Assembly (NCBI GenBank): GCA_026397595.1
Contig: JAPLUO010000292.1
Coordinates: 1-58,229 of the forward strand
Direction of reading: 5' to 3'
From: a candidate division WOR-3 bacterium
GTDB taxonomy: Bacteria > Hydrothermota > Tepidihabitantia > Tepidihabitantales > Tepidihabitantaceae
Length of the DNA: 58,229 nt
A program made the translations under genes and the position numbers. The notes below the pieces were generated by a model. The model made no database searches. It saw nothing but the letters and a program-made list of their open reading frames with translations, and was not told where the DNA came from. This document shows, one piece after another, positions 2,553-46,162 of this stretch (its first letter is position 1; the number at the start of each line of letters is the position of its first letter).

Positions 2553-2564
2553 AGGCCGGGTCTC

Positions 2565-2662
2565 CAAGGCACAGACCAAAGGGACGAGAGGGACCAACGT
2601 GACGGCGCGTGAACCGTCGCACCCGGATTGTCCTTTGTGTCCCTTTCGTCGCTCATGTCCCA
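2565..2662. repeat. Inverted 9-bp tandem repeat element
   Basis: AAAGGGAC-like units facing GTCCTTT/GTCCC units between hsdM and the four-helix-bundle gene. Confidence 0.55.
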
Positions 2663-6358: not shown

Positions 6359-6380
6359 GAGGGCCACCTGGAACCGGAAT

Positions 6381-6466
6381 TTAACCACAAAGGCACCAAG
6401 AACACCAAGCATACCAGGACACTTCCGGCCGCGGCCGACTTCGTGTCTTCGTGTCTTGGTGGTAAA
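6381..6466. repeat. Inverted 9-bp tandem repeat element
   Basis: ACACCAAG-like units followed by CTT(C/G)GTGT units ending GGTGGTAAA. Confidence 0.65.
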
Positions 6467-6493
6467 CTTCTGTCTCCGGATTCGGAGTCCTGA

Positions 6494-7795: not shown

Positions 7796-7810
7796 AAAGA
7801 GAGGCAAAGG

Positions 7811-33242: not shown

Positions 33243-33490
33243 AACCGCCAGGACGCCAAGAGACGCCAAGACCCGGAATGACTATCCGCAGATTACGCTG
33301 ATTACACAGATTCCGGTCCGCTCTCCGCCATCCGCACTTCTTACTTCCAACCTCTAGCTTCTGACATCTGATTTCGATTGTCCCTCACTCGACCCCTCGA
33401 ATCCTAGACCCCTAGCGTCTCCTATCCTGTTTGAATTGGCGGGCGCAGACCGCTGATGCGTCAGGAATCGCATAGTGAATCCCCAAGACT
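33243..33490 (+). repeat. Composite non-coding arm, copy A (direct repeat of 34149-34612)
   Basis: Shared blocks AACCGCCA..CGCCAAGAGACGCCAAGACCC, GACTATCCGCAGATTACGC, CACAGATTCCGGTCCGCTCTCCGCC, CTTCTTACTTC..CCTCTAGC..CTGACATCTGA, GCGTCAGGAATCGC. Confidence 0.8.
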
Positions 33491-33533
33491 GGTGCCGTTT
33501 AACACGGCCTGTTCCTCTGCTAGCACACGTTAC

Positions 33534-34127
33534 ATGCCAGAGACAAATCCGCCGGTTCTGATGCGTCACGTCGAACAGGCGATACTGGTCATCCGTGGGC
33601 ATCGGGTCATGACCAGCAGCGACCTTGCCGCGCTCTACGGCGTCGAACCCAAGGTTCTGATTCAGGCGGTGAAGCGAAACATCGAGCGATTCCCGGACGA
33701 CTTCATGTTCCAGTTGACCGGGGACGAGCATCGCATCTTGAAGTCACAATCTGTGACTTCAAGTTGGGGCGGGGCGCGCCGAGCGCTGCCGTACGCTTTC
33801 ACCGAGCAGGGCGTGGCGATGCTGTCGAGCGTGCTGCGCAGCAAGCGCGCAGTCCAGGTCAACGTCGAGATAATGCGTGCGTTCGTCCGCCTGCGGCGAA
33901 TTCTGGCCGAGAATGCCGGCCTCGCCCGGAGGCTGGATGAACTGGAGAAGAAGAACGACGTCCAGTTCAAGGTTGTCTTCGATGCCATCCGCAGCCTGAT
34001 GCAGCCGCCCGAACCGAAGAAGAAGCGCATCGGCTTCGTCACCGACGACGACAAACCCGGCCAGACCGGCAGAGGTTCGGACTTCGTCGCTCGCGACCGA
34101 CCTGCCCGGGAGCGCCGCGGCCGCTGA
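33534..34127 (+). CDS. ORF6N (KilA-N-like DNA-binding) domain protein
   Basis: IRGHRVM..DLAALYGV, QAVKRNIERFPDDFMFQL, PYAFTEQGVAMLSSVL, KRIGF; start uncertain. Confidence 0.9.
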   Translation: MPETNPPVLMRHVEQAILVIRGHRVMTSSDLAALYGVEPKVLIQAVKRNIERFPDDFMFQLTGDEHRILKSQSVTSSWGGARRALPYAFTEQGVAMLSSVLRSKRAVQVNVEIMRAFVRLRRILAENAGLARRLDELEKKNDVQFKVVFDAIRSLMQPPEPKKKRIGFVTDDDKPGQTGRGSDFVARDRPARERRGR

Positions 34128-34634: not shown

Positions 34635-37625
34635 TCACGCCGCGCCTGCCCGGTAGGTCAGCGCGAATACGGCGTCTGTGAGCCAGCGCCGGAATGACTC
34701 GTTGTCAGAGAACCGCGCGTAGAGTTCGGTGTCATCCTTGAGGATGGTTGTCATCACCCGGTCCAGCGCCTTGTCATGCTCGATTCGCGCGTTCTGCTCA
34801 TCCGAGTTCTCGCGCGCGTTCCGGTAGGCGGTGTCCGCCGAGACCATCGCCGGTATCTGTTCGGTGACCAACTTGCGCACGCGGTCAGCGTCGGTCCATG
34901 GGACGTCGCCGAAACGGTCGTTGAACCCCTTGAGGATGTTGGACAGGCGGTCTATCTCGGGTTCGGGCTTCATGCTGGGGTCGCCGAACGGCGCCGGTCC
35001 GATTTCGCTGTCGCCGTCGGGAAGCCGGATTGCGACTGCCGCCTGTTTCTCGACCCGGTAGCTGTCCATGTCTATCACTTGCAGAATGCCGCGAGCCAGG
35101 TCCTCATCCGGCGGCGCGGGGAGTTTGGGGATGAGGAAGTTCAGGAATACCGACAGCTTCTCCCATGCGGCATTCGTGTAGGGCAGGAGCGACGCCAGGA
35201 AGTCGTAGGTGCGCACGAATGCCTTGGCTTTGCCCTTGAAGTCCACCTGTCCATTCTCGTCGAGTTGCGTGGAGTAGACCGCCACACATGCGTCGAGAAT
35301 CGGGTCGAGCCGTTCCCGACCGGCGCCGCCGAGATAGTGCTCGACGAACTGCACCACCTGCTCCGGAGAATAGACCTGTGCGCCGTCGAGCGCGGACTTT
35401 AGGTCGTGCAGCTTGTTCGGGTCAGTCTCCTCGCTGAGAATCGTTGTGCGGTGGTAGTCAGCGAACGCATACTGGATGACGTCGGCATCGTTCATGAAGT
35501 CAAGCACGAAGACGTCGTGTTTCTGCGGATGCGCGCGGTCTAGCCGCGAGAGCGTCTGCACCGCCTTGATACCGGACAGTATCTTGTCCACGTACATCGT
35601 GTGCAATAGCGGCTCGTCGTAGCCGGTCTGGAACTTGTCGGCGCAGATGAGGAACCGGTAAGGGTCCTCCTGGATATTGTCCGATATCTTGGAGGACGGG
35701 AAGCCGTTCAGCGACGCCTCGGTTACCTTCACGCCGCCGTATTCATGTTCGCCTGAGAAAGCAACGATGGCCTTGTGCGGGCTCTTGGTCTCCAGCAGAT
35801 ACTCGCTGATGGCGTGGTAATACTGAATGGCCCGCTCGATGCCGCTGGTCACCACCATCGCCCGTGCCTGACCGCCGATCTTGTTCAAGCCGATGACCTG
35901 CTCGCGAAAGTGGTCCACCATTATCTCGGCCTTGAGCCGGATGGCATGGTCATGGCTTTCGACATAGCGCCGCAGCTTCTTCCTTGCCCGCCGGGTGTCG
36001 AACTCCGGGTCGGCTTCGACGGTCTTTACCAGCTTGTAGTAACTGTTGACCGGCGTGTAGTACTTTAGCACGTCGAGGATGAAGCCTTCATCTATCGCCT
36101 GCTTCATCGTATAGCTGTGGAACGGCAGGTGCTTCACCTTGCCGTCCGGCTGCGGCGCGGGATAGCCGAACATCTCCAGCGTCTTGCTCTTGGGCGTGGC
36201 GGTGAAGGCGAAGTAACTGGCGTTGGTGAGCATCTTGCGCGCCAGCATCCGCTTCTCCAGCGCGTCGTTCACCGTGTCCTCGGGGTCGGCCAGCGCCGCG
36301 CTCATAGCGGACGACGTCTTGCCGCCCTGGCTGGAGTGCGCCTCGTCAATGATGATGGCGAACTTCCGCTTCCGCTGCTCGGCTTCAATCTCGTCGAGGA
36401 TGAACGGGAACTTCTGCACCGTCGAGATGATTATCTTCTTACCGCCCTCGATGAACTTCCGCAGGTCTCCCGAGCCCTCGGCGTGGCCCACGGTCGCGCT
36501 CACCTGCGCAAACTGCTTGACGGTGTCGCGTATCTGCTTGTCGAGCAGGATGCGGTCAGTGACGACGACAATCGAGTCGACCAGCGGGGCGTCGTCCTTG
36601 CGCAGACCGATGAGTTGGTGCGCCAGCCACGCGATTGAATTCGACTTGCCGCTACCGGCCGAGTGCTGGATGAGGTAGCGCTTGCCCACACCATCCGTCG
36701 CGGCGGCAGCCAGCAGCTTCCGCACCACGTCCAGTTGGTGATACCGCGGGAATATCTGTGTCCGCTTCTTCCTGCCGGTCTTCTCGTCCCTCTTCTCGAC
36801 AACCTGCGCGTAGTTCTCGATGATATCGGTCAGCCCGCGCGGTGTCAGGATGCGCTTCCACAGATAGTCGGTCTTCAGACCGTTCGGGTTCGGCGGATTG
36901 CCTGCGCCGTCGTTGAACCCTTGGTTGAACGGCAGGAACCACGATACCTTGCCCTTCAGGTGGGTGCAGAACCGCGCCTCGTTGTCGTCCAGGGCAAAGT
37001 GAGTGATGCAGCGGCCGAACTGGAACAGCAATTCGTTCGGGTTCCGGTCGCGCTTATACTGCTCCTCCGCGTCAGCGGCTGTCTGCTTGGTCAGGCTGTT
37101 CTTTAGCTCAAAGGTGATGACCGGCAGGCCGTTGATGAACAGACACAGGTCAAGCGCACGCTGCGTTTCATCCTGGCTGTAACGCAACTGGCGCGTCACG
37201 CTGAACCGATTGGCTGCAAACAACTCTGCCGCCATCTCGTTCCCCGGCGACGGCGTGCCGAAGAACAGGTCAAGCTGATACTGGCCGTGCTTCAAGCCAT
37301 GGCGCAGAACGTCAATCACCCCGCGCCTGGCTATCTCGCCCTGCAACCGGACGAGGAACTTCCGCCGCGTTGGGCTGTCGTTCCCAAGGTCAAGCGCCTC
37401 GACCACCTCGGGTTGGGTCGCGTGGATGAAGGCCGACAACTGCGCCAGGTCAACCGCATACTCGCGGTCGTATGTCTCGGGTTCACCTTGAATCCATCCT
37501 GCCGGTCCGACGACCTGCGATGCGTCGCCAGCCGTGCCGGTCGCGGTCGGCGCAACCGTCGACCGCCCGGTCATGTCGGCGACAATCAGGCTTTCGAGGC
37601 CCTTTTCGCTGGTGTCGGTGGCCAT
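34635..37625 (-). CDS. hsdR: Type I restriction enzyme R subunit
   Basis: LDLCLFINGLP..ELKN nuclease motif, HSAGSGKS, DEAH, FTATP, QTLSRLDR. Confidence 0.95.
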   Translation of the reverse strand: MATDTSEKGLESLIVADMTGRSTVAPTATGTAGDASQVVGPAGWIQGEPETYDREYAVDLAQLSAFIHATQPEVVEALDLGNDSPTRRKFLVRLQGEIARRGVIDVLRHGLKHGQYQLDLFFGTPSPGNEMAAELFAANRFSVTRQLRYSQDETQRALDLCLFINGLPVITFELKNSLTKQTAADAEEQYKRDRNPNELLFQFGRCITHFALDDNEARFCTHLKGKVSWFLPFNQGFNDGAGNPPNPNGLKTDYLWKRILTPRGLTDIIENYAQVVEKRDEKTGRKKRTQIFPRYHQLDVVRKLLAAAATDGVGKRYLIQHSAGSGKSNSIAWLAHQLIGLRKDDAPLVDSIVVVTDRILLDKQIRDTVKQFAQVSATVGHAEGSGDLRKFIEGGKKIIISTVQKFPFILDEIEAEQRKRKFAIIIDEAHSSQGGKTSSAMSAALADPEDTVNDALEKRMLARKMLTNASYFAFTATPKSKTLEMFGYPAPQPDGKVKHLPFHSYTMKQAIDEGFILDVLKYYTPVNSYYKLVKTVEADPEFDTRRARKKLRRYVESHDHAIRLKAEIMVDHFREQVIGLNKIGGQARAMVVTSGIERAIQYYHAISEYLLETKSPHKAIVAFSGEHEYGGVKVTEASLNGFPSSKISDNIQEDPYRFLICADKFQTGYDEPLLHTMYVDKILSGIKAVQTLSRLDRAHPQKHDVFVLDFMNDADVIQYAFADYHRTTILSEETDPNKLHDLKSALDGAQVYSPEQVVQFVEHYLGGAGRERLDPILDACVAVYSTQLDENGQVDFKGKAKAFVRTYDFLASLLPYTNAAWEKLSVFLNFLIPKLPAPPDEDLARGILQVIDMDSYRVEKQAAVAIRLPDGDSEIGPAPFGDPSMKPEPEIDRLSNILKGFNDRFGDVPWTDADRVRKLVTEQIPAMVSADTAYRNARENSDEQNARIEHDKALDRVMTTILKDDTELYARFSDNESFRRWLTDAVFALTYRAGAA

Positions 37626-37636
37626 TCCGACCAGCC

Positions 37637-38680
37637 TCAGCTGGCCGAAAGCCAGTGTTTCTGTTGGAGAACGGACAGCGCCAGGTGTATCTGCTCGGGC
37701 GAGAATCGCTTCTTCCTCGGCCCCCACGCGTAGGTCTTCGCTACGACGTCATCCTCTGTCGCGGCGCCATCCTTCTTCGCAACCCAATGTACAGTGGAAA
37801 GGAGCTCAAGGCCGAATGGAGACTCGAAACCTTCGACAAGGTCAGCTACGCGCTCGACGCGGGTGCGGGTGTCCGGCTGGTCGCTCAATTGCGCGTCTGC
37901 GTCTTTCAGCGCCCCGGGTACTAGCTGCAGTGCCATGCCGGGCCTCTCGCTTCCGTTGACCATACCGGTGATGTAGTAACCGTCAATCTCGTGCAGTACG
38001 AACTTGAGATTCTCGGCATACGGACCGTACGGGGCTGGCTTGTAGCGCAGTTCCAGCGGCTCTCCTGCCTCCTGCATGAAGTACATCAGCTTGTGCACTT
38101 CAAGCAAGGTGACGAACGGGTCAAGCAGACCGGCCAGGTAGCGCCGCATCAATGCCAGCAACGCCGCGCGTCCTGGAGTCATGTGTGCAACGGCTCGCTC
38201 TGCTCTGTCTGGCTTGTGCTGGACGCCTGCCGCTGGCTCGAACACGACCACGCGGACGTCATGCAGCGTCTGGAGTTCCCGCACTATCCTCCGCCGGACT
38301 TCGGCCCAGTTGAGCCCGCCCAGCCCGCTGCCGAGAGGCGGAAGCGCTACGGACCGAATGCCACGCGACTCGATTTCCTGCTTCAGCGAGTGCAGCCCGG
38401 CCTCGATATCCTCGATACGGCTCTTTCCCTGCCAATGACGCTTGGTCGGGAAGTTGATGATATAGCGTGGGTAGGTGAGGTGCCCGGTCTCGTGCACAAA
38501 CATCTTGCCCGGCACAACCTCTTCGCGCCGACAAGCCGCCGCGTACTCCTTGAAATTGGCCGGGAAGGCCAGCTTGAACTGAAGCGCCACGCCTTTGCCC
38601 ATGACGCCGACGCAGTTGACTGTGTTGACCAGTGCTTCTGCGTCCTCGTTGAGGATGTCGCCGCGCTTGAACTCAATCAT
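37637..38680 (-). CDS. darG: DarG-type macrodomain antitoxin
   Basis: GDIL, NTVNCVGVMGKGVA, INFPTKRHW, LGSGLGGLNW, plus C-terminal domain (YGPYAENL, FGLELLSTVHW). Confidence 0.9.
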   Translation of the reverse strand: MIEFKRGDILNEDAEALVNTVNCVGVMGKGVALQFKLAFPANFKEYAAACRREEVVPGKMFVHETGHLTYPRYIINFPTKRHWQGKSRIEDIEAGLHSLKQEIESRGIRSVALPPLGSGLGGLNWAEVRRRIVRELQTLHDVRVVVFEPAAGVQHKPDRAERAVAHMTPGRAALLALMRRYLAGLLDPFVTLLEVHKLMYFMQEAGEPLELRYKPAPYGPYAENLKFVLHEIDGYYITGMVNGSERPGMALQLVPGALKDADAQLSDQPDTRTRVERVADLVEGFESPFGLELLSTVHWVAKKDGAATEDDVVAKTYAWGPRKKRFSPEQIHLALSVLQQKHWLSAS

Positions 38681-38694
38681 GGCTGCCTTTCTGG

Positions 38695-39345
38695 TTAATA
38701 GTACCAATCCGGCCGCACCTCTACAAGAGGCACATGCTCGCATCCGCGCAGCAGCTCCTGCACCCGTTTCCTGATGTTCTCGGAGTGAGTACCGATGCGA
38801 GAAACCAGCTTGAGCGGGAACTGCTCGTGCACGAGGAACTCGGCCTGCTTAGCCTCTTTCACTTCAGCGCGGTAGAAGTCTGTCGCCTGTATGTGTGGCC
38901 AATCGAGTTCCGTCAGTTGCTCGACCTGGGCTCGGAACTGCGCATAGAATGAGCCGGCGTTAGATAACGAGAATGCCCAGCGCTTCTCGTGTCTGTCGGC
39001 CCACGCGACAACTTCGTGCAGGTCGGCCTCCAAGTGGACTATCGGGCCTTCTCCGCCGCGGTAGGTCAGGCTCGGGTGATTCGCCATGTGTATCACGTAG
39101 AGCATTACGGACCGAGGGCAGAAGTAGAAAGGCACGTAATCGCCGACCTTCGTGCCGGGGTGACAAGACACCTCCAGAGACTCTATCCTCCTCTTTTTGA
39201 TCTCCGACATCCCAATGACAACGGCAGGTCCGCCTCGGGCGACTATCGTCGCGTCCGACACAAGACAACCGTCCGCAAGCATACCAGGAAGGTTGTCCAC
39301 TGGCGTGATGTGGTATATCTTCGGCTGCGCCGGGACTCTACTCAA
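38695..39345 (-). CDS. darT: DarT-type (DUF4433) DNA ADP-ribosyltransferase toxin
   Basis: IYHIT, DYVPFYFCPRSVMLY, SNAG, KQAEFLV with the catalytic Glu; directly upstream of the macrodomain gene. Confidence 0.9.
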   Translation of the reverse strand: MSRVPAQPKIYHITPVDNLPGMLADGCLVSDATIVARGGPAVVIGMSEIKKRRIESLEVSCHPGTKVGDYVPFYFCPRSVMLYVIHMANHPSLTYRGGEGPIVHLEADLHEVVAWADRHEKRWAFSLSNAGSFYAQFRAQVEQLTELDWPHIQATDFYRAEVKEAKQAEFLVHEQFPLKLVSRIGTHSENIRKRVQELLRGCEHVPLVEVRPDWYY

Positions 39346-40778
39346 TCCGCTACCTCCGTGTCTTCGCCACCGGCGTCCTCAACATCCTCCTCAGGTTCCT
39401 CATCGACCGGTAATTCCGGCTCCTCGACTTCCTCCGCCTCCTGCGGCAACCCGGCCGCAGCCTCGCGCACGTCCAGCTTCCCGGTCACGACGTCCGCCAC
39501 CAGCCGCGTGCGGTACTCGCGTACGAGACCTACAGCCCGCCTTGCGGACTGAAGACTCCGTTCGATCTCCGTGCATTCTACCCCGATCGCGCTGATAATC
39601 TGCTCTTGCTCTCCCCAGCGTGGTCTCGGCAAGTAGAAGGCACCGAAGTCACTGTATCGCACGCGCGGTGCTCTTTCGCGGACAGACGGACACAACACTA
39701 CGAAGAGACCACGCAGAGCCAGGCTCCGCAGTAGGAGCGCGTAGTACTTCACGACGACATCTGCGCTTCGGGGCTCGCAAATGACGTACTCAGGCGAACA
39801 CTTACCCTCCGAGTCTGAAACACCAATTGCTCCAGCAAAGGCGTCCATTGAGTGGAGAACTAGTTGGCCAGCCTTGATACCCTGATAGCCAAGCTCCTTG
39901 ATTGCGTTGGTGAACCCCGCGACCCGCCGGTTCCGTCGCAGCGTGACCTGCCCGTCCCTGAAGCACGTGACCATCTCTGCGTTCGCTGGTATCGGCGACG
40001 CGACTTGACGTAGAAGCAGCTTCGCACGATAGAGTGTCCAATGCTGCGGCACATCCCCCATCCAGGCCACACCGGAGGGCTTGAGCTTCACGTCTGGGTC
40101 GAGGCCGCGAGTGACGGCCTTGTGGATGACGGCCTGCTTCTGCTCGTTCAGCAGGGCAATCAGCTTCTGCTTTGCCCGGATGTACTTCCGAATCCGCCGG
40201 TCCATGTAGTCGAGGAACCGCACGATGGCCGATTGCTCGGATGGCGACGGAACTAGGCATGGCAGGTACTTGAAGTCAACCCAATCCAGATTCTGCCTAA
40301 GTCCAGAGCCAAGTCCGTAGAAGACCTTGAGCAGGTCATACGTATGCAGCAGTTGGAAGCCGAACTCGCGGGACAGCTTGCCGTCGGTATGGAAGCACAA
40401 GTAAGCGGACGTGATGATGCCACGATGATTGGAGAGGCCGAAGCGCAGGCTGTTCCAGTCATTCTGAAGGTCCGTCGGCCTGCAGACGATGTCTCCCGGT
40501 TCGACTATCTGGTACGTCTCGAACGAAGCGGGCACAAGTCCGTGGAGTTTCTCAGGTGGTCTGACGACAATTCTCCCGTAGCTCAAAGACAGCACCGTCT
40601 TCTCCTGCATACCGGTGTTGGAAGTGCACTTCTCGCGATAGCAGGCTCGACCCGGAAGAATATCCCATCCTGCCGGCACGTCTCCCAACCACGGCACGCC
40701 GGAGGGCTTGTAGGAAGGGTAAGGCTTGAGGCTTGATCTCCGGCAGGTGGAAGCGTCCCGAAGCGTTACCTTGGTCAT
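39342..40778 (-). CDS. hsdS: Type I R-M specificity subunit S with acidic tail
   Basis: KPYPSYKPSGVPWLG, EQSAIVRFLD, AVTRGLDPDVKLKPSG, EYRTRLVADVVTGKLDVR. Confidence 0.92.
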   Translation of the reverse strand: MTKVTLRDASTCRRSSLKPYPSYKPSGVPWLGDVPAGWDILPGRACYREKCTSNTGMQEKTVLSLSYGRIVVRPPEKLHGLVPASFETYQIVEPGDIVCRPTDLQNDWNSLRFGLSNHRGIITSAYLCFHTDGKLSREFGFQLLHTYDLLKVFYGLGSGLRQNLDWVDFKYLPCLVPSPSEQSAIVRFLDYMDRRIRKYIRAKQKLIALLNEQKQAVIHKAVTRGLDPDVKLKPSGVAWMGDVPQHWTLYRAKLLLRQVASPIPANAEMVTCFRDGQVTLRRNRRVAGFTNAIKELGYQGIKAGQLVLHSMDAFAGAIGVSDSEGKCSPEYVICEPRSADVVVKYYALLLRSLALRGLFVVLCPSVRERAPRVRYSDFGAFYLPRPRWGEQEQIISAIGVECTEIERSLQSARRAVGLVREYRTRLVADVVTGKLDVREAAAGLPQEAEEVEEPELPVDEEPEEDVEDAGGEDTEVAD

Positions 40779-40987
40779 GCGCGCGCGTATCGGAATGCCC
40801 CCTTTATGCTAAGCGCCAAGAACTGTCCTTTGGAGGGCGCGGTCTTCATCTGCTCAAAGACGTTCAGGGGAACATCGTAGTACTGATAGACGTTTCCGCT
40901 CTTGAACTCAACGGATAGCACCTGGTTCGCCTCGTCATAGCCAAACCGGGCAATGTTTGTGGACTCCGGCGACTCAATCCAATTTAC
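40775..40987 (-). CDS. KTSC domain protein, 70 codons, non-canonical GTA start (or start-loss pseudogene)
   Basis: Manual translation VNWIESPESTNIARFGYDEANQVLSVEFKSGNVYQYYDVPLNVFEQMKTAPSKGQFLALSIKGAFRYARA*; GGAGG 7 nt upstream; stop overlaps the hsdS ATG. Confidence 0.85.
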   Translation of the reverse strand, partial: VNWIESPESTNIARFGYDEANQVLSVEFKSGNVYQYYDVPLNVFEQMKTAPSKGQFLALSIKGAFRYARA

Positions 40988-42906
40988 GATTTGGCCTCCT
41001 TGTCTTTAGGTTGTCTGGCATCCTTAGTGGACGCCTCCTTGTGGTCGTAATGTGGGTTTTGTCTTCGCCACAGGCGTACGACGGCGGCATAGTCCTGGGT
41101 ATCCCGTTTCTGATTCCAGCCGCCCGCTCCGTCGAACCCATCGCGTTGGAGACTCCCTCGCACGACTACGCGCGGGTCTTCGCTGTCCGGCTTGCGGTTC
41201 TTGGCGGGAGGGTCAATCAACGTGCGTATTGGCAGCGACACGGCTTCACCGACGATAATTGCCTCCCCCGTGCGCAGGGCAGGCAGCATGTCGAACAGAC
41301 CCTTGAGGTTGTCAGATGCGGCGCTTGTGACCTGGCCACGGTCCGTCTCATTGGCCAGTCGCATAGCGAAGAGGGTACCACACTGGGATAGAATCGTCGG
41401 GTCGATTTCTGATGGGCGTTGGCTGACAAGCATGATACCCACCCCATACTTGCGGCCCTCCTTGGCGATTCGGCGAACGGCTGCGGCCGCGGCCCCGGAG
41501 TTCTCTTTGCCAAGATAGGCGTGGGCCTCCTCAAGAACAACAAGCAAGGGACGTTCCCGCCCGCCTTCGGGTAGCTTTCTTGCCCAGAACAACGCATCAT
41601 AGAGAATCCGCAACAACGCGCCGATCAGGTCGTTCAGTACCGACGATGGAATGCCCGACAGATCCAAGATCGTTATTGGGCTCTTCCCACCGATCCACTT
41701 CTCCAGAAGGCTATCCAAGTCCTTCGTGGTCTTGCCGTCGAGATCGGGCAGCCAATCGCCAGGTCTAAACAGGAAGCCGAAACGGGGATCACGGAGCTTC
41801 GATGCTAATCCCGCCAGTTGCTGGCGAACCCCAATCCCCTCGTTCGTATACTGCACGCGCTCTTCTGGTTTGCCAGTCGTCTTGACGTTGCGGAAAAGAG
41901 GCGGCGTGACAGACATTGCATCGCCGGTCTGAACCGGCTTGCCCTGATCGTCCAACACATAGGCTGGCATCCGCTCATCCGCACTGCCTCCGGGTTTGGG
42001 CACGACAGTCACGTACTCGCGTCGGTGCAGTTCAAGCCACATCTTGTGGATACAGAATGGAACAGGTGAGTCGACCGTGACCGTGTCCGCGGTCACGCCA
42101 TCGCGTGGTTGACTGGTCAGAGATTCCCTCTTGAGCTGGAACACAAAGTCGGAAATCGTAGCCGCTTTCTGGCCATCAAGACCTCCGAAGCCGACCGAAA
42201 CCAACTCGTCGAAACTCAATGCCCAGAAGGGAATGTGGAGCGGACGTTCTCTTGCGGATTCCTCTGCACCGACACGGAAGACGGAGCAGAGACCATGGAG
42301 AGCCTTTGCGTATTCACCGTGGATGTCGAGGATAAGAATGCGAGCCGACGGATATCGCGTGGAATCGGCAAGAGACGAAAGAAGCCCGGCGACGGTCGTG
42401 GACTTACCCGCGCCTGTTGTGCCGACCACGGCAGCATGGCGGGTCACGAGTGCGTTGATGTTGATGAGCGATGGAATGGCCTCCGAACTCGCCAAATGAC
42501 CAACAGGAACGAAATCATCTGGATCACCCGACCCATAGATGGTTCGCAAGTCCTGCTCGGTGACAAGATGCGCCTCATCGCCGATGGTCGGGTACTGCGA
42601 GATGCCGCGTTGGAACTTAGCTGACCGCTGGCCTTCCCCGACGAGCTGCACCTTCAGCCATCGGTAGCCGAAGGGTTCGACTTTGGCCAACGCTTCCGGT
42701 ACCGCTCCCGCGCCGACCTGCGACACGATCCCGAAGAGATTGGTAAGTCCGATAGGTATGCGGACGAAACTCCCGACTTGGCCGATGCGATAGCCGTGGC
42801 CGTCAATGAACGCTAGCCCGGACACTGTGTCCTTGTCGAGTGCAATGCTGATGGTCGCGCCCTGGACGTCCTGTACTGTCCCCAGGTAGGTCGGACTATT
42901 GGGCAT
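40984..42906 (-). CDS. herA: HerA/DUF87 family ATPase with HAS barrel
   Basis: GQVGSFVRI barrel, GTTGAGKS, DIHGEY, VLEEAH, KEGRKYG, SQRPSE; ATG at 42906. Confidence 0.9.
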   Translation of the reverse strand: MPNSPTYLGTVQDVQGATISIALDKDTVSGLAFIDGHGYRIGQVGSFVRIPIGLTNLFGIVSQVGAGAVPEALAKVEPFGYRWLKVQLVGEGQRSAKFQRGISQYPTIGDEAHLVTEQDLRTIYGSGDPDDFVPVGHLASSEAIPSLININALVTRHAAVVGTTGAGKSTTVAGLLSSLADSTRYPSARILILDIHGEYAKALHGLCSVFRVGAEESARERPLHIPFWALSFDELVSVGFGGLDGQKAATISDFVFQLKRESLTSQPRDGVTADTVTVDSPVPFCIHKMWLELHRREYVTVVPKPGGSADERMPAYVLDDQGKPVQTGDAMSVTPPLFRNVKTTGKPEERVQYTNEGIGVRQQLAGLASKLRDPRFGFLFRPGDWLPDLDGKTTKDLDSLLEKWIGGKSPITILDLSGIPSSVLNDLIGALLRILYDALFWARKLPEGGRERPLLVVLEEAHAYLGKENSGAAAAAVRRIAKEGRKYGVGIMLVSQRPSEIDPTILSQCGTLFAMRLANETDRGQVTSAASDNLKGLFDMLPALRTGEAIIVGEAVSLPIRTLIDPPAKNRKPDSEDPRVVVRGSLQRDGFDGAGGWNQKRDTQDYAAVVRLWRRQNPHYDHKEASTKDARQPKDKEAKS

Positions 42907-44116
42907 TGGCGACCTCGGGCGGCTGACGCACATTGCCTGCCAATTCCTTGAGGAACTCCCCGAAAACAGCGAAATCCCCGAGGGTGAAATTGGCCGTTCG
43001 CTTGCCGTTTTCATTTGCCGGATCAATCGGCATCCACTTGACCCACTCGTCATTGTCTGCCGACACGGTCTCCGCGTCTCTTTCCGGCCACCTGGATTCT
43101 TGGCCGCCGATGACCGCGCCGTCGCGCGCTAGAATAATGAGATTGGAGCGTTTGGAGGCAAGAGAGACAGCCTGCGAGTACTCTGCAATCACGTCAAAGA
43201 GCAGTGCAAAGGCAACAGCGGTCTGCGTGCATTCAAGCCCCTGCACGATAACCTCGTTGATGTGTTGGTCGCGGAAGGAGTAGCCGCAGAGGAAAAGCGT
43301 GGCGGTAGGGAGCTTGAGGAACGCCCGCAGTCGGTCGATCATGGCGAGGTAGGGCATCCGCCTGCTCTCCTGGTATTTCAGATACGAGGGATGAATGACG
43401 CGCCTTGAGCCTTCGTCCCCTTGGGTCGTTCCACGACATACACCTTTATTGGGAACCTGGTACCAATTGATCGAGCCGTGCAGTTTCCACAAACGCGCCC
43501 AGCGCGGCGGAAGTAGATCTTCCTCCATTGCCCGAAGGTCGAAGAACGGCTTCCGTACCCCTGCGAAACCGTCGAAGTACGGAACGCAGGAATCCTCGAA
43601 CGCCTGCTCCATCAGCAAATCATAGTTGGTCGTGAATACCTCAACAGGGTTCTCGCGACGGACTGCATCCACCCAAGTTGCGATGCGATGGTAGGGCGTC
43701 TCTGTACCAGGGAGCGTCTTGTCTGCGATTTGCTGGATGAGTTGGCAGATTCTGTCATCCAACTGATCCAGTTTCCCGGCGGTCAGGCCGCGCACAACGT
43801 CTTTACCCGCGACGGCGCGGAGGGCACGGATGTGGGTGAGCATGTCTTCCACGGTCGTGTCCGTACGCTCATCTTTCTTGAAGTGCTCCTCGATGGTCTT
43901 CAGGAGGGGGCCGCAGTCCTTGCACTTGGCCAGATCACCGCGGACCAACTTGGTGATCCCGGCGATGTCGGGAATCAGTGGCGACTCTCCGTCAGCGCCC
44001 ACTCTTACAGCCACGGGGCAGCCGGCGCCGAGGAGAAACCCGAGCGGTTTCTTGTCGCTGGACAGGCATTGTTGCAGGTAACCAACTTGCCTCTTGGGAT
44101 CTTGAATGCAGTTCAT
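42896..44116 (-). CDS. SIR2-like (SIR2_2) protein, predicted NADase
   Basis: LLGAGC, FTTNYDLLME, KLHGSINW, GYSFRDQHIN. Confidence 0.9.
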   Translation of the reverse strand: MNCIQDPKRQVGYLQQCLSSDKKPLGFLLGAGCPVAVRVGADGESPLIPDIAGITKLVRGDLAKCKDCGPLLKTIEEHFKKDERTDTTVEDMLTHIRALRAVAGKDVVRGLTAGKLDQLDDRICQLIQQIADKTLPGTETPYHRIATWVDAVRRENPVEVFTTNYDLLMEQAFEDSCVPYFDGFAGVRKPFFDLRAMEEDLLPPRWARLWKLHGSINWYQVPNKGVCRGTTQGDEGSRRVIHPSYLKYQESRRMPYLAMIDRLRAFLKLPTATLFLCGYSFRDQHINEVIVQGLECTQTAVAFALLFDVIAEYSQAVSLASKRSNLIILARDGAVIGGQESRWPERDAETVSADNDEWVKWMPIDPANENGKRTANFTLGDFAVFGEFLKELAGNVRQPPEVANAQ

Positions 44117-46092
44117 TGTCCACCTCTCTCAGTGATCTCGTCGAGCAATCCCTCTGTCTTCTCCTGAACCGCCCTGATGTCGGCGCGGATTTCTTCGAGC
44201 GTGCGGAGCGGCTGGGGCTTGTAGAAGTAGCGGGTGAAGCTGATTTCGTAGCCGGTCTTGGTGCTGGGTTCGTCAATCCAGGCGTCCGGCGCGTAGGGCA
44301 GCACTTCGCGGCGGATGAAAGCCTCGACGCCACCCTCTTCCAGCAAAGGAATCTGCTCGGTGTCGCGCAGGTCCGGGTCGGGCTCGTACTCGACCGCGCA
44401 CTTCTTGCCGCCGATGGTGGCCTCGAAGAAACCTCGCAGTGGGTCAGGCTGCATCTTGCCCGGCTTGTGAATCTTCACGATGACCGGCGGGGCGTCCGTG
44501 TCGCGCTCGCTGCTCTCTTTGAGCGCCTTGATTTCCTTCGGCGTGTAGGCGCGGTTCGGGTCAATGCCCTTCAGGCGCAGTGGCCGCTCGACCGTCACCT
44601 TCCAGTAGCCAAAGGCCGCGTTCGGGAATATCTTCGACTGTTTGGTCTCCTTGAAGGCGAGGAAGGTGTCGCAGATGCGTTTGATGTCTTCTTCCGCCAG
44701 TTCGCAGTTCTTCTTGCCGAGGTTCTTGCGCAACGGCTTGAACCACTGCGTTGCGTCAATGAGTTGCACCTTGCCTTTGCGATGCTCAGGCTTGCGGTTG
44801 GAGAGCACCCAGATGTAGGTCGCGATGCCGGTGTTGTAGAACATGTTGAGCGGCAAGGCGACGATGGCCTCAAGCCAGTCGCTCTCGATAATCCAGCGCC
44901 GGATGTTGCTCTCGCCCTGGCCCGCGTCGCCGGTGAAGAGCGACGAGCCGTTGTGCACCTCGGCGATGCGGCTGCCGAGCTTGGTGTTGTGCTTCATCTT
45001 GGAGAGCATGTTGGCGAGGAAGAGCATCTGGCCGTCGCTGGAGCGCGTGATTAGCGAGTATTCCGCGTCACCCGCACGCGTGATGAGGAAGCGCGGGTCC
45101 TTGATGCCCTCTTTGCCGCCCATCCGTTCGAGGTCGGTCTTCCAGCTTTTGCCGTAGGGCGGGTTAGAGAGCATGAAGTCGAACTTGCGCGACCGGAAGG
45201 CGTCGGCCGAAAGCGTCGAATGCTCCGGCCCGCCGATGATGTTGTCGGCAGCAGACCCCTCGCCTTTGAGCAGCAGGTCGGCTTTGGCGATAGCGTAGGT
45301 CTCGGAGTTGATCTCCTGACCGTACAGGTGAATGGAGACTTGCTTGCCACGGTCCTTGGCGAGCTGCTTGAGCGTTTCCTCGGCCACGGTGAGCATGCCG
45401 AGGGTGCCGCACGCGCCGTCATACAAGAGGTAGGTGCCGGACTCCAACTTGTCCGCAATCGGCATGAAGATGAGCCGCGCCATCAGCTTGACCGCATCGC
45501 GCGGAGTCCAGTGCTCGCCCGCTTCCTCGTTGTTCTCTTCGTTGAAGCGGCGGACAAGCTCCTCGAAAACCGTGCCCATTCCGTGGTTGTCGAGGCCGGG
45601 CAGCCTCACCGAGCCGTCCGCGTTCAAGACCGGGTCCGGGCTCAAGTTGATGTCGTGGTCCAGGTACTTCTCAATCAGCGTACCGAGCGCGTCGGCTTTG
45701 GACAGGCGCGGAATCTGGTTGCGGAACTCGAAGCATTCGAGGACATCCTGCACGTTGGGCGAGAAGCCGTTGAGATAGGCCTCGAAGTCGGTGCGAAGCT
45801 GTTGCTGGCTGGCGCGGGCGCGCAGGTCACGGAGCGTGAACGATGATGTGTTGTAGAAGTCCTGGCCGGCCGCGCCTCGCAGCGCGCGGTCCTTGTTGGT
45901 GATGCGTGCCTTGTCGAGCGTGGCGTTCATTTCGAGCACGGCCTGTTTGGTCGGTTCGAGAACCCCGTCGAGCCTTCGCAGCACCGTCATCGGCAGAATC
46001 ACGTCGCGGTACTTCCCGCGAACGTACAAGTCGCGGAGCACGTCATCGGCGATGCCCCAGATGAAGTTGGCGATTCCGTTCAGGTCGTACAT
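44113..46092 (-). CDS. hsdM: Type I R-M methyltransferase subunit M
   Basis: FIWGIADDVLRD, GEHWTPRD, DGACGT, NPPY, FYNTGIATY. Confidence 0.95.
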   Translation of the reverse strand: MYDLNGIANFIWGIADDVLRDLYVRGKYRDVILPMTVLRRLDGVLEPTKQAVLEMNATLDKARITNKDRALRGAAGQDFYNTSSFTLRDLRARASQQQLRTDFEAYLNGFSPNVQDVLECFEFRNQIPRLSKADALGTLIEKYLDHDINLSPDPVLNADGSVRLPGLDNHGMGTVFEELVRRFNEENNEEAGEHWTPRDAVKLMARLIFMPIADKLESGTYLLYDGACGTLGMLTVAEETLKQLAKDRGKQVSIHLYGQEINSETYAIAKADLLLKGEGSAADNIIGGPEHSTLSADAFRSRKFDFMLSNPPYGKSWKTDLERMGGKEGIKDPRFLITRAGDAEYSLITRSSDGQMLFLANMLSKMKHNTKLGSRIAEVHNGSSLFTGDAGQGESNIRRWIIESDWLEAIVALPLNMFYNTGIATYIWVLSNRKPEHRKGKVQLIDATQWFKPLRKNLGKKNCELAEEDIKRICDTFLAFKETKQSKIFPNAAFGYWKVTVERPLRLKGIDPNRAYTPKEIKALKESSERDTDAPPVIVKIHKPGKMQPDPLRGFFEATIGGKKCAVEYEPDPDLRDTEQIPLLEEGGVEAFIRREVLPYAPDAWIDEPSTKTGYEISFTRYFYKPQPLRTLEEIRADIRAVQEKTEGLLDEITERGGQ

Positions 46093-46134: not shown

Positions 46135-46162
46135 ATCTTAAGTGCAGGCGGACAGAAGTCAA
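46135..46162 (-). promoter_or_regulatory. Sigma70-type promoter for the defence operon
   Basis: TTGACT-16 bp-TAAGAT; GAGGTG RBS before ATG 46092. Confidence 0.6.

What the first reader, a model, noticed from the sequence alone, without database searches (positions are those of the whole stretch)
34635..46092. Single-operon layered defence: hsdM-SIR2-HerA-KTSC-hsdS-darT-darG-hsdR
Seen: eight genes behind one predicted promoter, five junctions overlapping and two with gaps of 14 and 11 nt, with catalytic motifs intact. Known: SIR2-HerA depletes NAD+ on infection, DarT uses NAD+ to ADP-ribosylate DNA and DarG reverses it, and PrrC is a precedent for an effector nested in a type I operon that guards it. 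Inference: two NAD+-dependent back-up modules are wired into a type I enzyme, perhaps triggered by anti-restriction proteins, with KTSC as an extra component. I do not know this combination as a described system, though each module is known separately.
Basis: partly seen in the sequence, partly recalled or inferred. Interest (0 to 1): 0.85.

Follow-up and report, generated by a model that had tools for sequence, protein, structure and literature searches.

The report
Restriction operon carrying two defence cassettes

Summary
Eight co-directional genes lie on the minus strand, 46092-34635: hsdM, SIR2, HerA, KTSC, hsdS, darT, darG, hsdR.

The interpretation of two back-up modules wired into the enzyme is not supported. 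Sister species whose hsdM and hsdR are 91-96% identical carry different cargo at the same two positions: PsyrTA, an Mrr-like nuclease, a Schlafen-like protein, an ATPase. In 80 metagenomic loci of this type I family, 44 of 62 have an insert between hsdM and hsdS, and 25 of 45 have one between hsdS and hsdR. Compact, cargo-free operons also exist.

The SIR2-HerA-KTSC cassette occurs in 15 loci from other phyla with no type I system around it. DarTG inserted in type I operons is published (PMC5179494, PMC12255303), as is embedding of defence genes in general (bioRxiv 10.1101/2024.01.29.577857).

KTSC is not an extra component. It matches the C-terminal domain of the structurally solved Paenibacillus HerA (PDB 8wiv), here encoded as a separate ORF that lacks a canonical start codon.

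One metagenomic locus (L045) repeats the SIR2-HerA plus DarTG combination with a different SIR2-HerA subtype, which is compatible with chance. Verdict: a new member of a known kind, of modest interest.

The parts
46135..46162 (-). Sigma-70-like promoter match (TTGACT-16-TAAGAT) 43 nt upstream of the hsdM ATG
   Evidence: 9 of 12 consensus positions, a pattern match only. DNA similarity to congeners ends at about 46185, so this region belongs to the conserved backbone.
44113..46092 (-). hsdM, type I methyltransferase subunit, 659 aa
   Evidence: N6_Mtase 3.4e-51, HsdM_N 7.6e-22, PADLOC MTase_I PDLC03029 2.9e-243. NPPY at residue 310. 91-94% identical in four congeners.
42896..44116 (-). SIR2 NADase of the Paenibacillus-type SIR2-HerA system, 406 aa (cargo, hsdM|hsdS slot)
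   Evidence: PDLC04094 2.3e-132. PDB 8w9l 2.8e-102, with N164/D166/H213 aligned to catalytic N163/D165/H212. ATGA overlap with the hsdM stop.
40984..42906 (-). HerA ATPase, 640 aa (cargo, hsdM|hsdS slot)
   Evidence: PDLC04105 2.6e-158. PDB 8wiv 3.9e-221, residues 3-605 aligned to chain 9-592. Walker A GTTGAGKS and Walker B LLVVLEE. The ATG at 42906 overlaps the SIR2 stop by 11 nt.
40775..40990 (-). KTSC-domain ORF (71 codons from ATC 40990): the detached C-terminal domain of HerA. It has no canonical start codon.
   Evidence: PF13619 1e-22; matches 8wiv residues 634-695 at 2.9e-9; 15 of 15 related loci have a separate 69-aa ORF with ATG, 7 of them overlapping the HerA stop as ATGA. The window reads ATCGTAA at that place.
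39342..40778 (-). hsdS, specificity subunit, 478 aa
   Evidence: Specificity_I PDLC03072 1.4e-81 over residues 16-441. The central region 40038-40238 is 86-88% identical to congeners, while the rest of hsdS gave no DNA hit and the proteins are 35-38% identical.
38695..39345 (-). darT, DNA ADP-ribosyltransferase toxin, 216 aa, TTG start (cargo, hsdS|hsdR slot)
   Evidence: PF14487 1.2e-63, NCBIfam toxin_DarT 235 bits (cut-off 150). Thermus DarT 7omv 3.2e-31. E169 in the AEFL motif.
37637..38680 (-). darG, macrodomain antitoxin with a C-terminal DarT-binding domain, 347 aa (cargo, hsdS|hsdR slot)
   Evidence: antitoxin_DarG 438 bits (cut-off 250); macrodomain 5m31 2.5e-49 (residues 1-151), C-terminal domain 7yk3_B 5.9e-25 (residues 167-336).
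34635..37625 (-). hsdR, restriction subunit, 996 aa from ATG 37625
   Evidence: HSDR_N 1e-18, SWI2_SNF2 9.3e-29, ResIII 3e-17, T1R_D3-like 3.6e-11. DEAH, GSGKS and D..ELK motifs. 96% identical in congener G006. Homologues align from residue 35 of the longest ORF.

Best explanation
This is a type I restriction-modification operon of a horizontally mobile family (HsdM about 660 aa). The family has two cargo slots, one between hsdM and hsdS and one between hsdS and hsdR.

In this genome the first slot holds a Paenibacillus-type SIR2-HerA abortive-infection system, whose HerA C-terminal KTSC domain is encoded as a separate small ORF. The second slot holds a macrodomain-type DarTG toxin-antitoxin system.

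Each of the three systems is self-contained:
- The Hsd enzyme cuts unmodified incoming DNA.
- The SIR2-HerA complex depletes NAD+, and has nuclease, ATPase and helicase activities.
- DarT ADP-ribosylates single-stranded DNA unless DarG reverses the modification or sequesters DarT.

What the cassettes share is transcription and translational coupling from the hsdM promoter, and joint inheritance. Cassettes are exchanged by recombination that uses the conserved hsdM and hsdR genes, and the conserved centre of hsdS, as homology arms.

Shown here: the gene identities, the junctions, the variable cargo in conserved backbones, and the occurrence of the cassettes elsewhere. Inferred: co-transcription, the recombination route, and all activities, which are taken from published homologues.
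For: (1) Identities and layout.

(2) Congeners. hsdM orthologues occur in 7 of 10 congeners and in none of 30 more distant relatives. The window's SIR2 has no orthologue in the 40 relatives; the only matches are two weak partial hits at 1e-6 to 1e-7.
- G006 (hsdM 94%, hsdR 96% identical) has hsdM-PsyrT-PsyrA-hsdS-macro-NYN-hsdR.
- G005 has hsdM-Mrr_cat/HARE-HTH-hsdS-Schlafen/HATPase_c_4-two small ORFs-hsdR.
- G010 has an AAA_15/AAA_21 ATPase after hsdM.
- DNA similarity between the window and G006 stops within about 20 nt of the hsdM stop and the hsdR start.

(3) Census of 80 metagenomic loci (hsdM 66-85% identical):
- 44 of 62 have more than 700 bp between hsdM and hsdS; 16 of 62 have at most 150 bp.
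- 25 of 45 have more than 700 bp between hsdS and hsdR; 20 of 45 have at most 200 bp.
- Cargo clusters are slot-specific. Three GmrSD-like clusters (19 ORFs), Hypoth_Ymh (6) and YhcG (4) are all in the hsdM|hsdS slot. The Schlafen-like cluster is in the hsdS|hsdR slot for 9 of 10 ORFs. Complete DarTG occupies the hsdS|hsdR slot in L045, L052, L080 and L082.
- One representative per cluster was annotated.

(4) Named records with the same backbone:
- Meiothermus taiwanensis pMtWR-220 (HsdM 78%, HsdR 72% identical): hsdM-DUF262-hsdS-DarT-DarG-AAA-DUF4276-hsdR.
- Synechocystis PCC 6803 pSYSG (HsdM 69%, HsdR 66%): hsdM-DUF433-PIN-hsdS-NTase-zeta-hypothetical-DarT-DarG-hsdR.

(5) Cassette independence.
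- 15 of 15 loci with a SIR2 at least 39% identical, and with sequence available beyond HerA, carry SIR2-HerA-KTSC.
- Type I genes were found near only one of L001-L018, namely L004, and there downstream rather than enclosing the cassette.
- DarTG is stand-alone on the Xanthobacter and Bradyrhizobium plasmids.
- In the DarG tree, embedded L082 pairs with the stand-alone Xanthobacter protein at 78% identity (support 94/92, below the tool's star threshold).

(6) Literature (passages read):
- The EPEC rptR-hsdM-hsdS-darT-darG-hsdR-M48 island is a functional defence island with an active promoter shown upstream, repressed by RptR. The authors call the hsdS|hsdR site a potential recombination hotspot (PMC12255303).
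- Type I, BREX and DISARM systems frequently contain embedded genes; across these and Hma, embedded genes share the host system's orientation in 96.7% of cases (bioRxiv 10.1101/2024.01.29.577857).
- The Paenibacillus SIR2-HerA structure and activities are described in PMC11472057.
Against: - No expression data. No run on record as RNA holds the stretch, and promoter-like matches also lie inside the operon, so a single transcript is not shown.
- One metagenomic locus (L045) repeats hsdM-SIR2-HerA-hsdS-darT-darG-hsdR with a different SIR2-HerA subtype, PDLC04079/PDLC04098. This could hint at selection for the pairing.
- DarTG recurs in the same slot across phyla, and cargo is strongly slot-specific. 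Some functional constraint beyond shared transcription is therefore not excluded.
- KTSC has no canonical start codon, so the SIR2-HerA module may be impaired here.
- The census rests on tblastn hit boundaries and on one annotated representative per cargo cluster.
- The window comes from a MAG with 6.6% estimated contamination.
Confidence: 0.8

Rival explanations
1. SIR2-HerA(-KTSC) and DarTG are functionally wired to the type I enzyme as guards. They would be triggered when phage anti-restriction proteins disable it, as PrrC is linked to EcoprrI.
For: - The genes are tightly coupled in one orientation.
- The same combination recurs in L045 with another SIR2-HerA subtype.
- DarTG recurs between hsdS and hsdR in Meiothermus, Synechocystis and four metagenomic loci, and in EPEC (PMC12255303).
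- Jankevicius et al. raised possible crosstalk between methylation and ADP-ribosylation.
Against: - Both cassettes occur without a type I system.
- Backbones occur without cargo, or with unrelated cargo, in near-identical sister operons.
- Homologous SIR2-HerA and DarTG systems defend on their own in heterologous hosts, as stated in PMC11514289 and PMC12255303.
- The co-occurrence is not beyond chance. One of 2 SIR2-HerA loci has DarTG, against 3 of the other 43. The probability of at least one overlap is 0.17 (my hand calculation from the, 30 counts).
- SIR2-driven NAD+ depletion would remove DarT's own substrate, which argues against cooperation (inference).
Confidence: 0.08
2. The embedded cassettes act mainly as addiction modules that stabilise the type I operon, or its mobile carrier, against loss. 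Phage defence would be secondary.
For: - Jankevicius et al. proposed this for DarTG in type I operons (PMC5179494).
- Toxin-antitoxin-like cargo is frequent in the slots: PsyrTA in G006, and PIN-like and zeta-toxin genes in Synechocystis pSYSG.
- The backbone is found on plasmids.
Against: - Much of the cargo is not toxin-antitoxin-like: GmrSD-type nucleases, YhcG, OLD, Schlafen-like proteins.
- SIR2-HerA is not known as an addiction module.
- The EPEC island with DarTG does protect against phages.
- This rival is not exclusive of the best explanation.
Confidence: 0.1
3. The arrangement is an assembly chimera of a metagenome-assembled genome and does not exist on one DNA molecule.
For: The genome is a 494-contig MAG with 6.6% estimated contamination.
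Against: - Contigs of other public runs bridge several junctions. X9 (another study) bridges hsdM|SIR2 at about 95% identity. X7 (another study) bridges SIR2|HerA and HerA|KTSC. X6 bridges hsdS|darT, darT|darG and darG|hsdR with no differences, though X6 shares a study with a possible source sample.
- Overlapping start and stop codons at four junctions would not arise from mis-joins.
- L045 and the named plasmids show the same architecture.
Confidence: 0.01

Closest known systems
EPEC E2348/69 RRDM island (rptR-hsdM-hsdS-darT2-darG2-hsdR-M48), PMC12255303
   Same: DarTG lies between hsdS and hsdR of a type I operon, all in one orientation and read from upstream of hsdM. The island is a functional anti-phage island. 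The authors call the site a potential recombination hotspot.
   Different: - No M48 peptidase was found downstream here.
- An RptR homologue could not be tested, because I had no RptR sequence. The 97-aa ORF upstream has no Pfam hit and no match in the related loci.
- The window also fills the hsdM|hsdS slot.
- I did not compare the EPEC Hsd proteins with the window's.
Meiothermus taiwanensis pMtWR-220 and Synechocystis sp. PCC 6803 pSYSG type I loci (public plasmid records)
   Same: Same type I family: HsdM 78% and 69% identical, HsdR 72% and 66% identical. Both slots are filled, and DarT-DarG (54-61% identical) sits between hsdS and hsdR.
   Different: The hsdM|hsdS slot holds a DUF262 protein (Meiothermus) or a DUF433/PIN pair (Synechocystis) instead of SIR2-HerA. 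Further genes share the hsdS|hsdR slot: AAA plus DUF4276 in Meiothermus, NTase plus zeta toxin in Synechocystis.
Paenibacillus sp. 453MF SIR2-HerA (PDB 8w9l, 8wiv, 8wld; PMC11472057)
   Same: Same subtype: SIR2 2.8e-102 and HerA 3.9e-221 against the solved chains. The catalytic N/D/H are conserved. The KTSC sequence matches HerA residues 634-695, inside what the paper calls the C-terminal arm domain (aa 576-696).
   Different: - Here, and in 15 of 15 related loci, the KTSC domain is a separate 69-71 codon ORF rather than fused.
- The window's copy lacks ATG, GTG or TTG.
- The Paenibacillus system was characterised as a two-gene system. Its genomic context was not examined here.
Embedded defence systems ('guilt-by-embedding'), Payne et al., bioRxiv 10.1101/2024.01.29.577857
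   Same: Defence genes nested inside type I RM operons in the host system's orientation. GmrSD-like proteins are frequent cargo, as in my census.
   Different: The main text I searched does not mention DarTG, SIR2 or hsdS (0 occurrences each). Figures and supplements were not available. It does not describe the two-slot, slot-specific pattern of this one family.
PrrC / EcoprrI
   Same: An abortive-infection effector encoded inside a type I operon.
   Different: PrrC is reported as almost exclusively embedded in type I systems. It is known to be held latent by the Hsd proteins (recalled, not from a call). The window's cassettes are common outside type I systems.

Membership tests
Type I restriction-modification system | HsdM with an N6-adenine methyltransferase domain and an HsdM N-terminal domain | tested here: met
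   N6_Mtase 3.4e-51, HsdM_N 7.6e-22. NPPY at residue 310. The NCBIfam hsdM equivalog scores below its cut-off (93 bits against 242.75), so this is a divergent family.
Type I restriction-modification system | HsdS specificity subunit with two target-recognition halves | tested here: met
   Specificity_I 1.4e-81 over residues 16-441 of 478. Pfam Methylase_S is only 0.024. tblastn in relatives matches both halves.
Type I restriction-modification system | HsdR with an N-terminal nuclease domain and an SF2 motor | tested here: met
   HSDR_N 1e-18, SWI2_SNF2 9.3e-29, ResIII 3e-17. DEAH, GSGKS and D..ELK motifs.
Type I restriction-modification system | Methylation and restriction activity | not testable with these tools
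   Needs methylome data or plaque assays.
SIR2-HerA (Gao19/Nezha), Paenibacillus subtype | SIR2 with the catalytic Asn/Asp/His | tested here: met
   N164/D166/H213 align to N163/D165/H212 of 8w9l. The residues are named in PMC11472057.
SIR2-HerA (Gao19/Nezha), Paenibacillus subtype | Adjacent HerA ATPase with Walker A and B | tested here: met
   8wiv 3.9e-221. GTTGAGKS and LLVVLEE. 11-nt overlap with SIR2.
SIR2-HerA (Gao19/Nezha), Paenibacillus subtype | HerA C-terminal arm including the KTSC-like end | tested here: inconclusive
   The domain is present but on a separate ORF without a canonical start. Whether it is made, and whether it binds HerA in trans, is unknown.
DarTG toxin-antitoxin (macrodomain type) | DarT fold with the catalytic Glu | tested here: met
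   toxin_DarT 235 bits (cut-off 150); aligned end to end with Thermus DarT 7omv. The window has E169 where the deposited chain has A. That this chain is the E-to-A mutant is recalled, not from a call.
DarTG toxin-antitoxin (macrodomain type) | DarG with a macrodomain plus a C-terminal DarT-binding domain, encoded directly after darT | tested here: met
   antitoxin_DarG 438 bits (cut-off 250); 5m31 (residues 1-151) and 7yk3_B (residues 167-336). 14-nt gap after darT.
PrrC-like guard wired to a type I enzyme | The effector family is found almost only inside type I operons | tested here: not met
   SIR2-HerA-KTSC: none of the 11 loci with at least 2 kb of upstream sequence has hsdM upstream. DarTG: 2 of 4 plasmid loci are stand-alone.
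PrrC-like guard wired to a type I enzyme | Physical or regulatory dependence on the Hsd subunits | not testable with these tools
   Needs pull-downs and assays with anti-restriction proteins.
RptR-regulated RMS-DarTG island (RRDM) | rptR repressor gene upstream and M48 peptidase gene downstream | tested here: inconclusive
   No M48 domain in the downstream ORFs. The upstream 97-aa ORF has no Pfam hit and no match in the related loci. No RptR sequence was available to compare.

The most novel reading that the evidence does not exclude
This mobile type I family may act as a dedicated two-slot cassette platform with slot-specific cargo. On that reading, SIR2-HerA in the first slot paired with DarTG in the second is selected rather than accidental. 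The pairing is seen in the window and, with an unrelated SIR2-HerA subtype, in L045. The reason could be that the two NAD+-using systems interact. For example, SIR2-driven NAD+ depletion could cap DarT self-toxicity, or both could respond to failure of restriction.
Probability: 0.08. Interest if true: 0.6.

Novelty: new member of a known kind. Interest (0 to 1): 0.3.

Why it matters
The locus is a clean natural example of three defence layers (restriction, NAD+ depletion, DNA ADP-ribosylation) packed into one tightly coupled operon.

The comparison with sister species shows directly how such layers are exchanged. The whole segment between hsdM and hsdR is replaced, while the flanking genes stay 91-96% identical.

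The census adds a family-level picture: two slots, filled in most members, each with its own cargo repertoire. That picture could guide the search for new defence genes among the unannotated cargo, for example the 268-aa cluster in the hsdS|hsdR slot.

It also corrects a tempting misreading. The KTSC gene is a detached HerA domain, not a new component. This offers a natural split/fused pair for asking what the C-terminal end of this HerA does.

Tried and rejected

- RNA evidence. The look-up of sequencing runs listed no holder on record as RNA. In read laying one 254-nt contig of a metatranscriptomic library (X22) matched 42710-42963 without differences, across the SIR2|HerA junction. DNA carry-over cannot be excluded, so I do not count it as expression. 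The other X22 pieces were short and mostly ran on unlike. Parts of the stretch without cover in X7 and X9 are not interpreted.

- HerA-KTSC fusions. My script appeared to show fused HerA-KTSC ORFs in L013, L014 and L017. That was my error: the stop search began beyond the stop codon. One search shows separate ORFs in all 15 loci. The only fused form I saw is the deposited Paenibacillus chain 8wiv.

- Programmed -1 frameshift joining HerA to KTSC. I read the HerA|KTSC junction sequence printed by eye and found no slippery heptamer there; no pattern scan was run. The idea was dropped.

- Co-occurrence of SIR2-HerA and DarTG beyond chance. There is one overlap among 45 loci with 2 and 4 carriers. 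The probability of at least one overlap is 0.17 (hand calculation), which is not significant. The window itself cannot be counted because it was chosen for this feature.

- DarG tree. It is star-like, with 0 of 6 inner branches starred. Only the L082/Xanthobacter pair has moderate support, so it is used as a weak hint.

- Literature for this exact combination. The search 'SIR2-HerA' + 'embedded' + 'restriction-modification' gave 6 papers. I opened two, and both use 'embedded' in other senses. The search 'KTSC' + 'HerA' gave 3 papers. One of them, PMC9503650, notes as an unpublished observation that some HerA-like ATPases are coupled to a KTSC gene and an endoDNase in place of the sirtuin. I found no paper that names the KTSC domain in the Paenibacillus HerA: 'KTSC' occurs 0 times in PMC11472057 and PMC11514289.

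- Complex prediction, structure prediction and the large protein searches were not used. The solved fused homologue answered the KTSC question, and a pass would have reflected likeness to that structure.

- Comparison with the EPEC Hsd or RptR proteins was not done, because no sequence was on hand.

Full report
**What is there.** The minus strand from 46092 to 34635 carries eight co-directional genes. Pfam, PADLOC and NCBIfam identify them as follows:
- hsdM (PADLOC MTase_I 2.9e-243)
- a SIR2 protein (PDLC04094, 2.3e-132)
- HerA (PDLC04105, 2.6e-158)
- a KTSC-domain ORF (PF13619, 1e-22)
- hsdS (PADLOC Specificity_I 1.4e-81; Pfam only 0.024)
- darT (NCBIfam 235 bits, cut-off 150)
- darG (438 bits, cut-off 250)
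- hsdR (HSDR_N 1e-18, SWI2_SNF2 9.3e-29)

There are ATGA or TTGA overlaps at hsdM|SIR2, KTSC|hsdS and hsdS|darT, an 11-nt overlap at SIR2|HerA, a 14-nt gap at darT|darG and an 11-nt gap at darG|hsdR. The true starts of HerA, darG and hsdR are internal ATGs of the longest ORFs. This is shown by where the family profiles and homologues begin.

A sigma-70-like match lies 43 nt upstream of hsdM (46162-46135). It is only a 9-of-12 consensus match, and similar matches lie inside the operon. One transcript is therefore inferred from spacing, not shown.

Catalytic motifs are present. For SIR2 the residues N164/D166/H213 align with the catalytic N163/D165/H212 of the solved Paenibacillus enzyme (PMC11472057, passages read).

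**The genome.** The window is a whole contig of a 494-contig metagenome-assembled genome, 94% complete with 6.6% contamination. Contigs of other public runs bridge several junctions of the operon, including hsdM|SIR2 at about 95% identity in a run of another study. The layout is therefore not an assembly artefact.

**The two insert positions are variable cargo slots.** Orthologues of the window's hsdM occur in 7 of 10 congeneric genomes and in none of 30 more distant relatives. The window's SIR2 has no orthologue in any of the 40 relatives.

I fetched the congeners' loci and annotated what lies between the hsd genes:
- G006 (hsdM 94%, hsdR 96% identical): hsdM-PsyrT-PsyrA-hsdS-(macrodomain only, 73% identical to the first 150 residues of the window's DarG)-NYN protein-hsdR.
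- G005 (hsdM 68% identical): an Mrr_cat/HARE-HTH nuclease in the first slot, and a Schlafen AlbA_2/HATPase_c_4 protein plus two small ORFs in the second.
- G010 (hsdM 93% identical): an AAA_15/AAA_21 ATPase follows hsdM.

DNA similarity between the window and G006 ends within about 20 nt of the hsdM stop and the hsdR start. Inside that span, only the centre of hsdS (201 nt, 86%) and the 5' half of darG (77-80%) still match. The whole inner segment has thus been exchanged between very similar hsdM and hsdR arms.

**Census of the family.** A metagenome scan with HsdM returned 80 loci at 66-85% identity. I mapped the window's eight proteins on them.
- Among 62 loci where hsdS is seen, 44 have more than 700 bp between hsdM and hsdS, and 16 have at most 150 bp.
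- Among 45 loci where hsdS and hsdR are both seen, 25 have more than 700 bp between them, and 20 have at most 200 bp.

These distances come from tblastn hit ends, so they are approximate.

I clustered 109 gap ORFs and annotated one representative of each larger cluster.
- First slot: three GmrSD-like clusters (9, 5 and 5 ORFs), a Hypoth_Ymh/PD-Lambda-3_B-like cluster (6), YhcG/DUF1016 (4), PRTase-CE (2), an OLD nuclease, and SIR2-HerA (L045, L078).
- Second slot: a Schlafen-like cluster (9 of its 10 ORFs), DarTG (L045, L052, L080, L082, with remnants in L046 and L085), an unannotated 268-aa cluster (4), and others.

Cargo is strikingly slot-specific. Compact hsdM-hsdS-hsdR operons with neither insert also exist, for example L058, L069, L096, L109, L116 and L120.

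**Named examples.** A tblastn search of DarG against plasmids, followed by annotated regions and protein mapping, shows the same backbone in cultured organisms:
- Meiothermus taiwanensis pMtWR-220 (HsdM 78%, HsdR 72% identical): hsdM-DUF262-hsdS-DarT-DarG-AAA ATPase-DUF4276-hsdR.
- Synechocystis sp. PCC 6803 pSYSG (HsdM 69%, HsdR 66% identical): hsdM-DUF433-PIN-like-hsdS-nucleotidyltransferase-zeta toxin-hypothetical-DarT-DarG-hsdR.

On the Xanthobacter and Bradyrhizobium plasmids, DarT-DarG stands alone.

**The cassettes on their own.** A genome scan with the window's SIR2 gave 22 loci.
- In all 15 loci whose SIR2 is at least 39% identical and whose sequence continues beyond HerA, the order is SIR2-HerA-KTSC. 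The record titles name Desulfobacteraceae, Syntrophobacteraceae, Opitutaceae, Acidobacteria, Burkholderiaceae, Treponemataceae, Nitrospirae, Calditrichaceae and three Bacteroidota genera.
- A sensitive tblastn with both of the window's type I systems found hsd genes near only one of L001-L018 (L004), and there downstream of the cassette, not around it.
- A small DarG tree is star-like. Its best-supported pair joins an embedded copy (L082) with the stand-alone Xanthobacter copy (78% identity, support 94/92).

**KTSC resolved.** The window's HerA matches the solved HerA of Paenibacillus sp. 453MF (8wiv, 696 aa) at 3.9e-221 over chain residues 9-592. The KTSC ORF matches residues 634-695 of the same chain at 2.9e-9. 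The SIR2 matches 8w9l at 2.8e-102.

The paper on these structures calls residues 576-696 a C-terminal arm domain, and its abstract says the C-terminal extension stabilises the split-spiral HerA hexamer. It never uses the name KTSC (PMC11472057). KTSC is therefore the C-terminal end of this HerA subtype, fused in Paenibacillus and split in the window and in 15 of 15 related loci.

My earlier reading of fusions in L013, L014 and L017 was a script error, corrected.

In the relatives the small ORF has 69 codons, an ATG and a GGAGG upstream, and 7 of 15 overlap the HerA stop as ATGA. The window reads ATCGTAA at that place. A single G-to-C difference would remove both the KTSC ATG and the HerA TGA. 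The ORF then has only ATC (40990) or ATT (40978) as possible starts. Whether it is translated is open.

Iyer, Aravind and colleagues mention, as an unpublished observation, HerA-like ATPases coupled to a KTSC gene (PMC9503650).

**DarTG.**
- DarT aligns end to end with Thermus DarT (7omv, 3.2e-31).
- DarG has both the macrodomain (5m31, 2.5e-49) and the C-terminal domain that matches the DarT-bound fragment 7yk3_B (5.9e-25).
- It is thus the macrodomain type, which PMC12255303 describes as thymidine-directed, with DarG both reversing the modification and sequestering DarT.

**What is already known.**
- Jankevicius et al. [quoted passage not shown] They offer crosstalk or operon stabilisation as explanations (PMC5179494).
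- The 2025 RptR paper shows that the EPEC island rptR-hsdM-hsdS-darT-darG-hsdR-M48 protects against phages and has an active promoter upstream that RptR represses. It calls the hsdS|hsdR site a potential recombination hotspot (PMC12255303).
- Payne et al. report that type I, BREX and DISARM systems frequently contain embedded genes, that across these and Hma the embedded genes share the host's orientation in 96.7% of cases, that GmrSD-like genes are frequent cargo, and that PrrC is almost exclusively embedded (bioRxiv 10.1101/2024.01.29.577857).

I saw passages of these papers, not figures or supplements.

**How it most likely works.** There are three self-contained layers under shared expression.
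- The Hsd complex methylates host DNA and cuts unmodified DNA.
- SIR2-HerA assembles into a large complex with NADase, nuclease, ATPase and helicase activities, and stops infection by NAD+ loss (PMC11472057 and PMC11514289).
- DarT ADP-ribosylates single-stranded DNA when DarG no longer contains it.

The activities are inferred from homologues. What is shown here is the anatomy and the population pattern.

The wiring idea fails the one test I could make. Unlike PrrC, neither cassette depends on a type I context for its occurrence. Because DarT needs NAD+, a fired SIR2 would starve it, so the two are more plausibly alternatives against different phages than partners (inference).

The one result in favour of a link is L045. 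It has the same gene order with a different SIR2-HerA subtype (PDLC04079/PDLC04098, no KTSC ORF). With 2 SIR2-HerA and 4 DarTG carriers among 45 loci, at least one overlap is expected 17% of the time (my arithmetic).

**Verdict.** The locus is a new member of a known kind, namely defence cassettes embedded in a type I operon. Its modest new content is:
- the two-slot, slot-specific cargo pattern of this mobile family;
- direct evidence of cassette replacement between sister species;
- the split KTSC end of HerA.

Interest 0.3.

Noticed in passing
window 40975-41001 (minus strand): The KTSC ORF has no ATG, GTG or TTG before its domain. It has only ATC (40990) or ATT (40978), downstream of an AAGGAGG. 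Relatives have ATGA at the HerA|KTSC junction, so one G-to-C difference would explain both the lost start and the HerA stop shifted by one codon.
   Followed up: partly
window 77-4704 (minus strand): A second type I locus lies on the same contig, with HsdM 43% identical to the first. Its order is hsdM (4704-2653), a 237-aa ORF with a weak 23S_rRNA_IVP match (2690-1977), hsdS (about 1974-709), then a weak Y1_Tnp-like ORF (712-77) at the contig end. No hsdR is seen.
   Followed up: partly
L039 13704-14899 (congener G006): Between hsdS and hsdR there is a macrodomain-only protein, 73% identical to the first 150 residues of the window's DarG, followed by an NYN-domain protein (HEC-09-like, 2.3e-11). 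There is no darT and no DarG C-terminal domain. This is either a DarTG remnant or a distinct macro-NYN pair.
   Followed up: partly
window 40038-40238: The centre of hsdS is 86-88% identical in DNA to congeners G006 and G005, while the rest of hsdS gave no DNA hit and the proteins are 35-38% identical. This is the pattern expected if target-recognition halves are swapped by recombination. A contig in run X9 likewise aligns only to the conserved parts of hsdS next to darT.
   Followed up: no
window 33456-34127 (plus strand): An ORF6N-domain gene (3.5e-33) lies convergent to hsdR. It is 84% identical at the protein level to a gene downstream of hsdR in congener G006, so the hsdR side of the locus is syntenic. 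Upstream of hsdM, similarity ends at about 46185.
   Followed up: partly
L049 15168-15974, L102, L112, L113 (hsdS|hsdR slot): A 267-305-aa protein family recurs in the second slot of four loci, with no Pfam or PADLOC match for its representative. It is a candidate unknown defence gene.
   Followed up: no
L127 1366-3303 (Synechocystis PCC 6803 pSYSG): The PLSDB gene table lists no gene where tblastn finds a full-length HsdM, 69% identical to the window's. This is probably a gap in that table rather than a missing gene.
   Followed up: no
window 4985-10486 (plus strand): Two adjacent PmbA/TldD-family metallopeptidase genes are followed by an 891-aa Lon-like protein (AAA_32, LonB_AAA-LID, LonC_helical, Lon_C). 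They lie next to the second type I locus.
   Followed up: no
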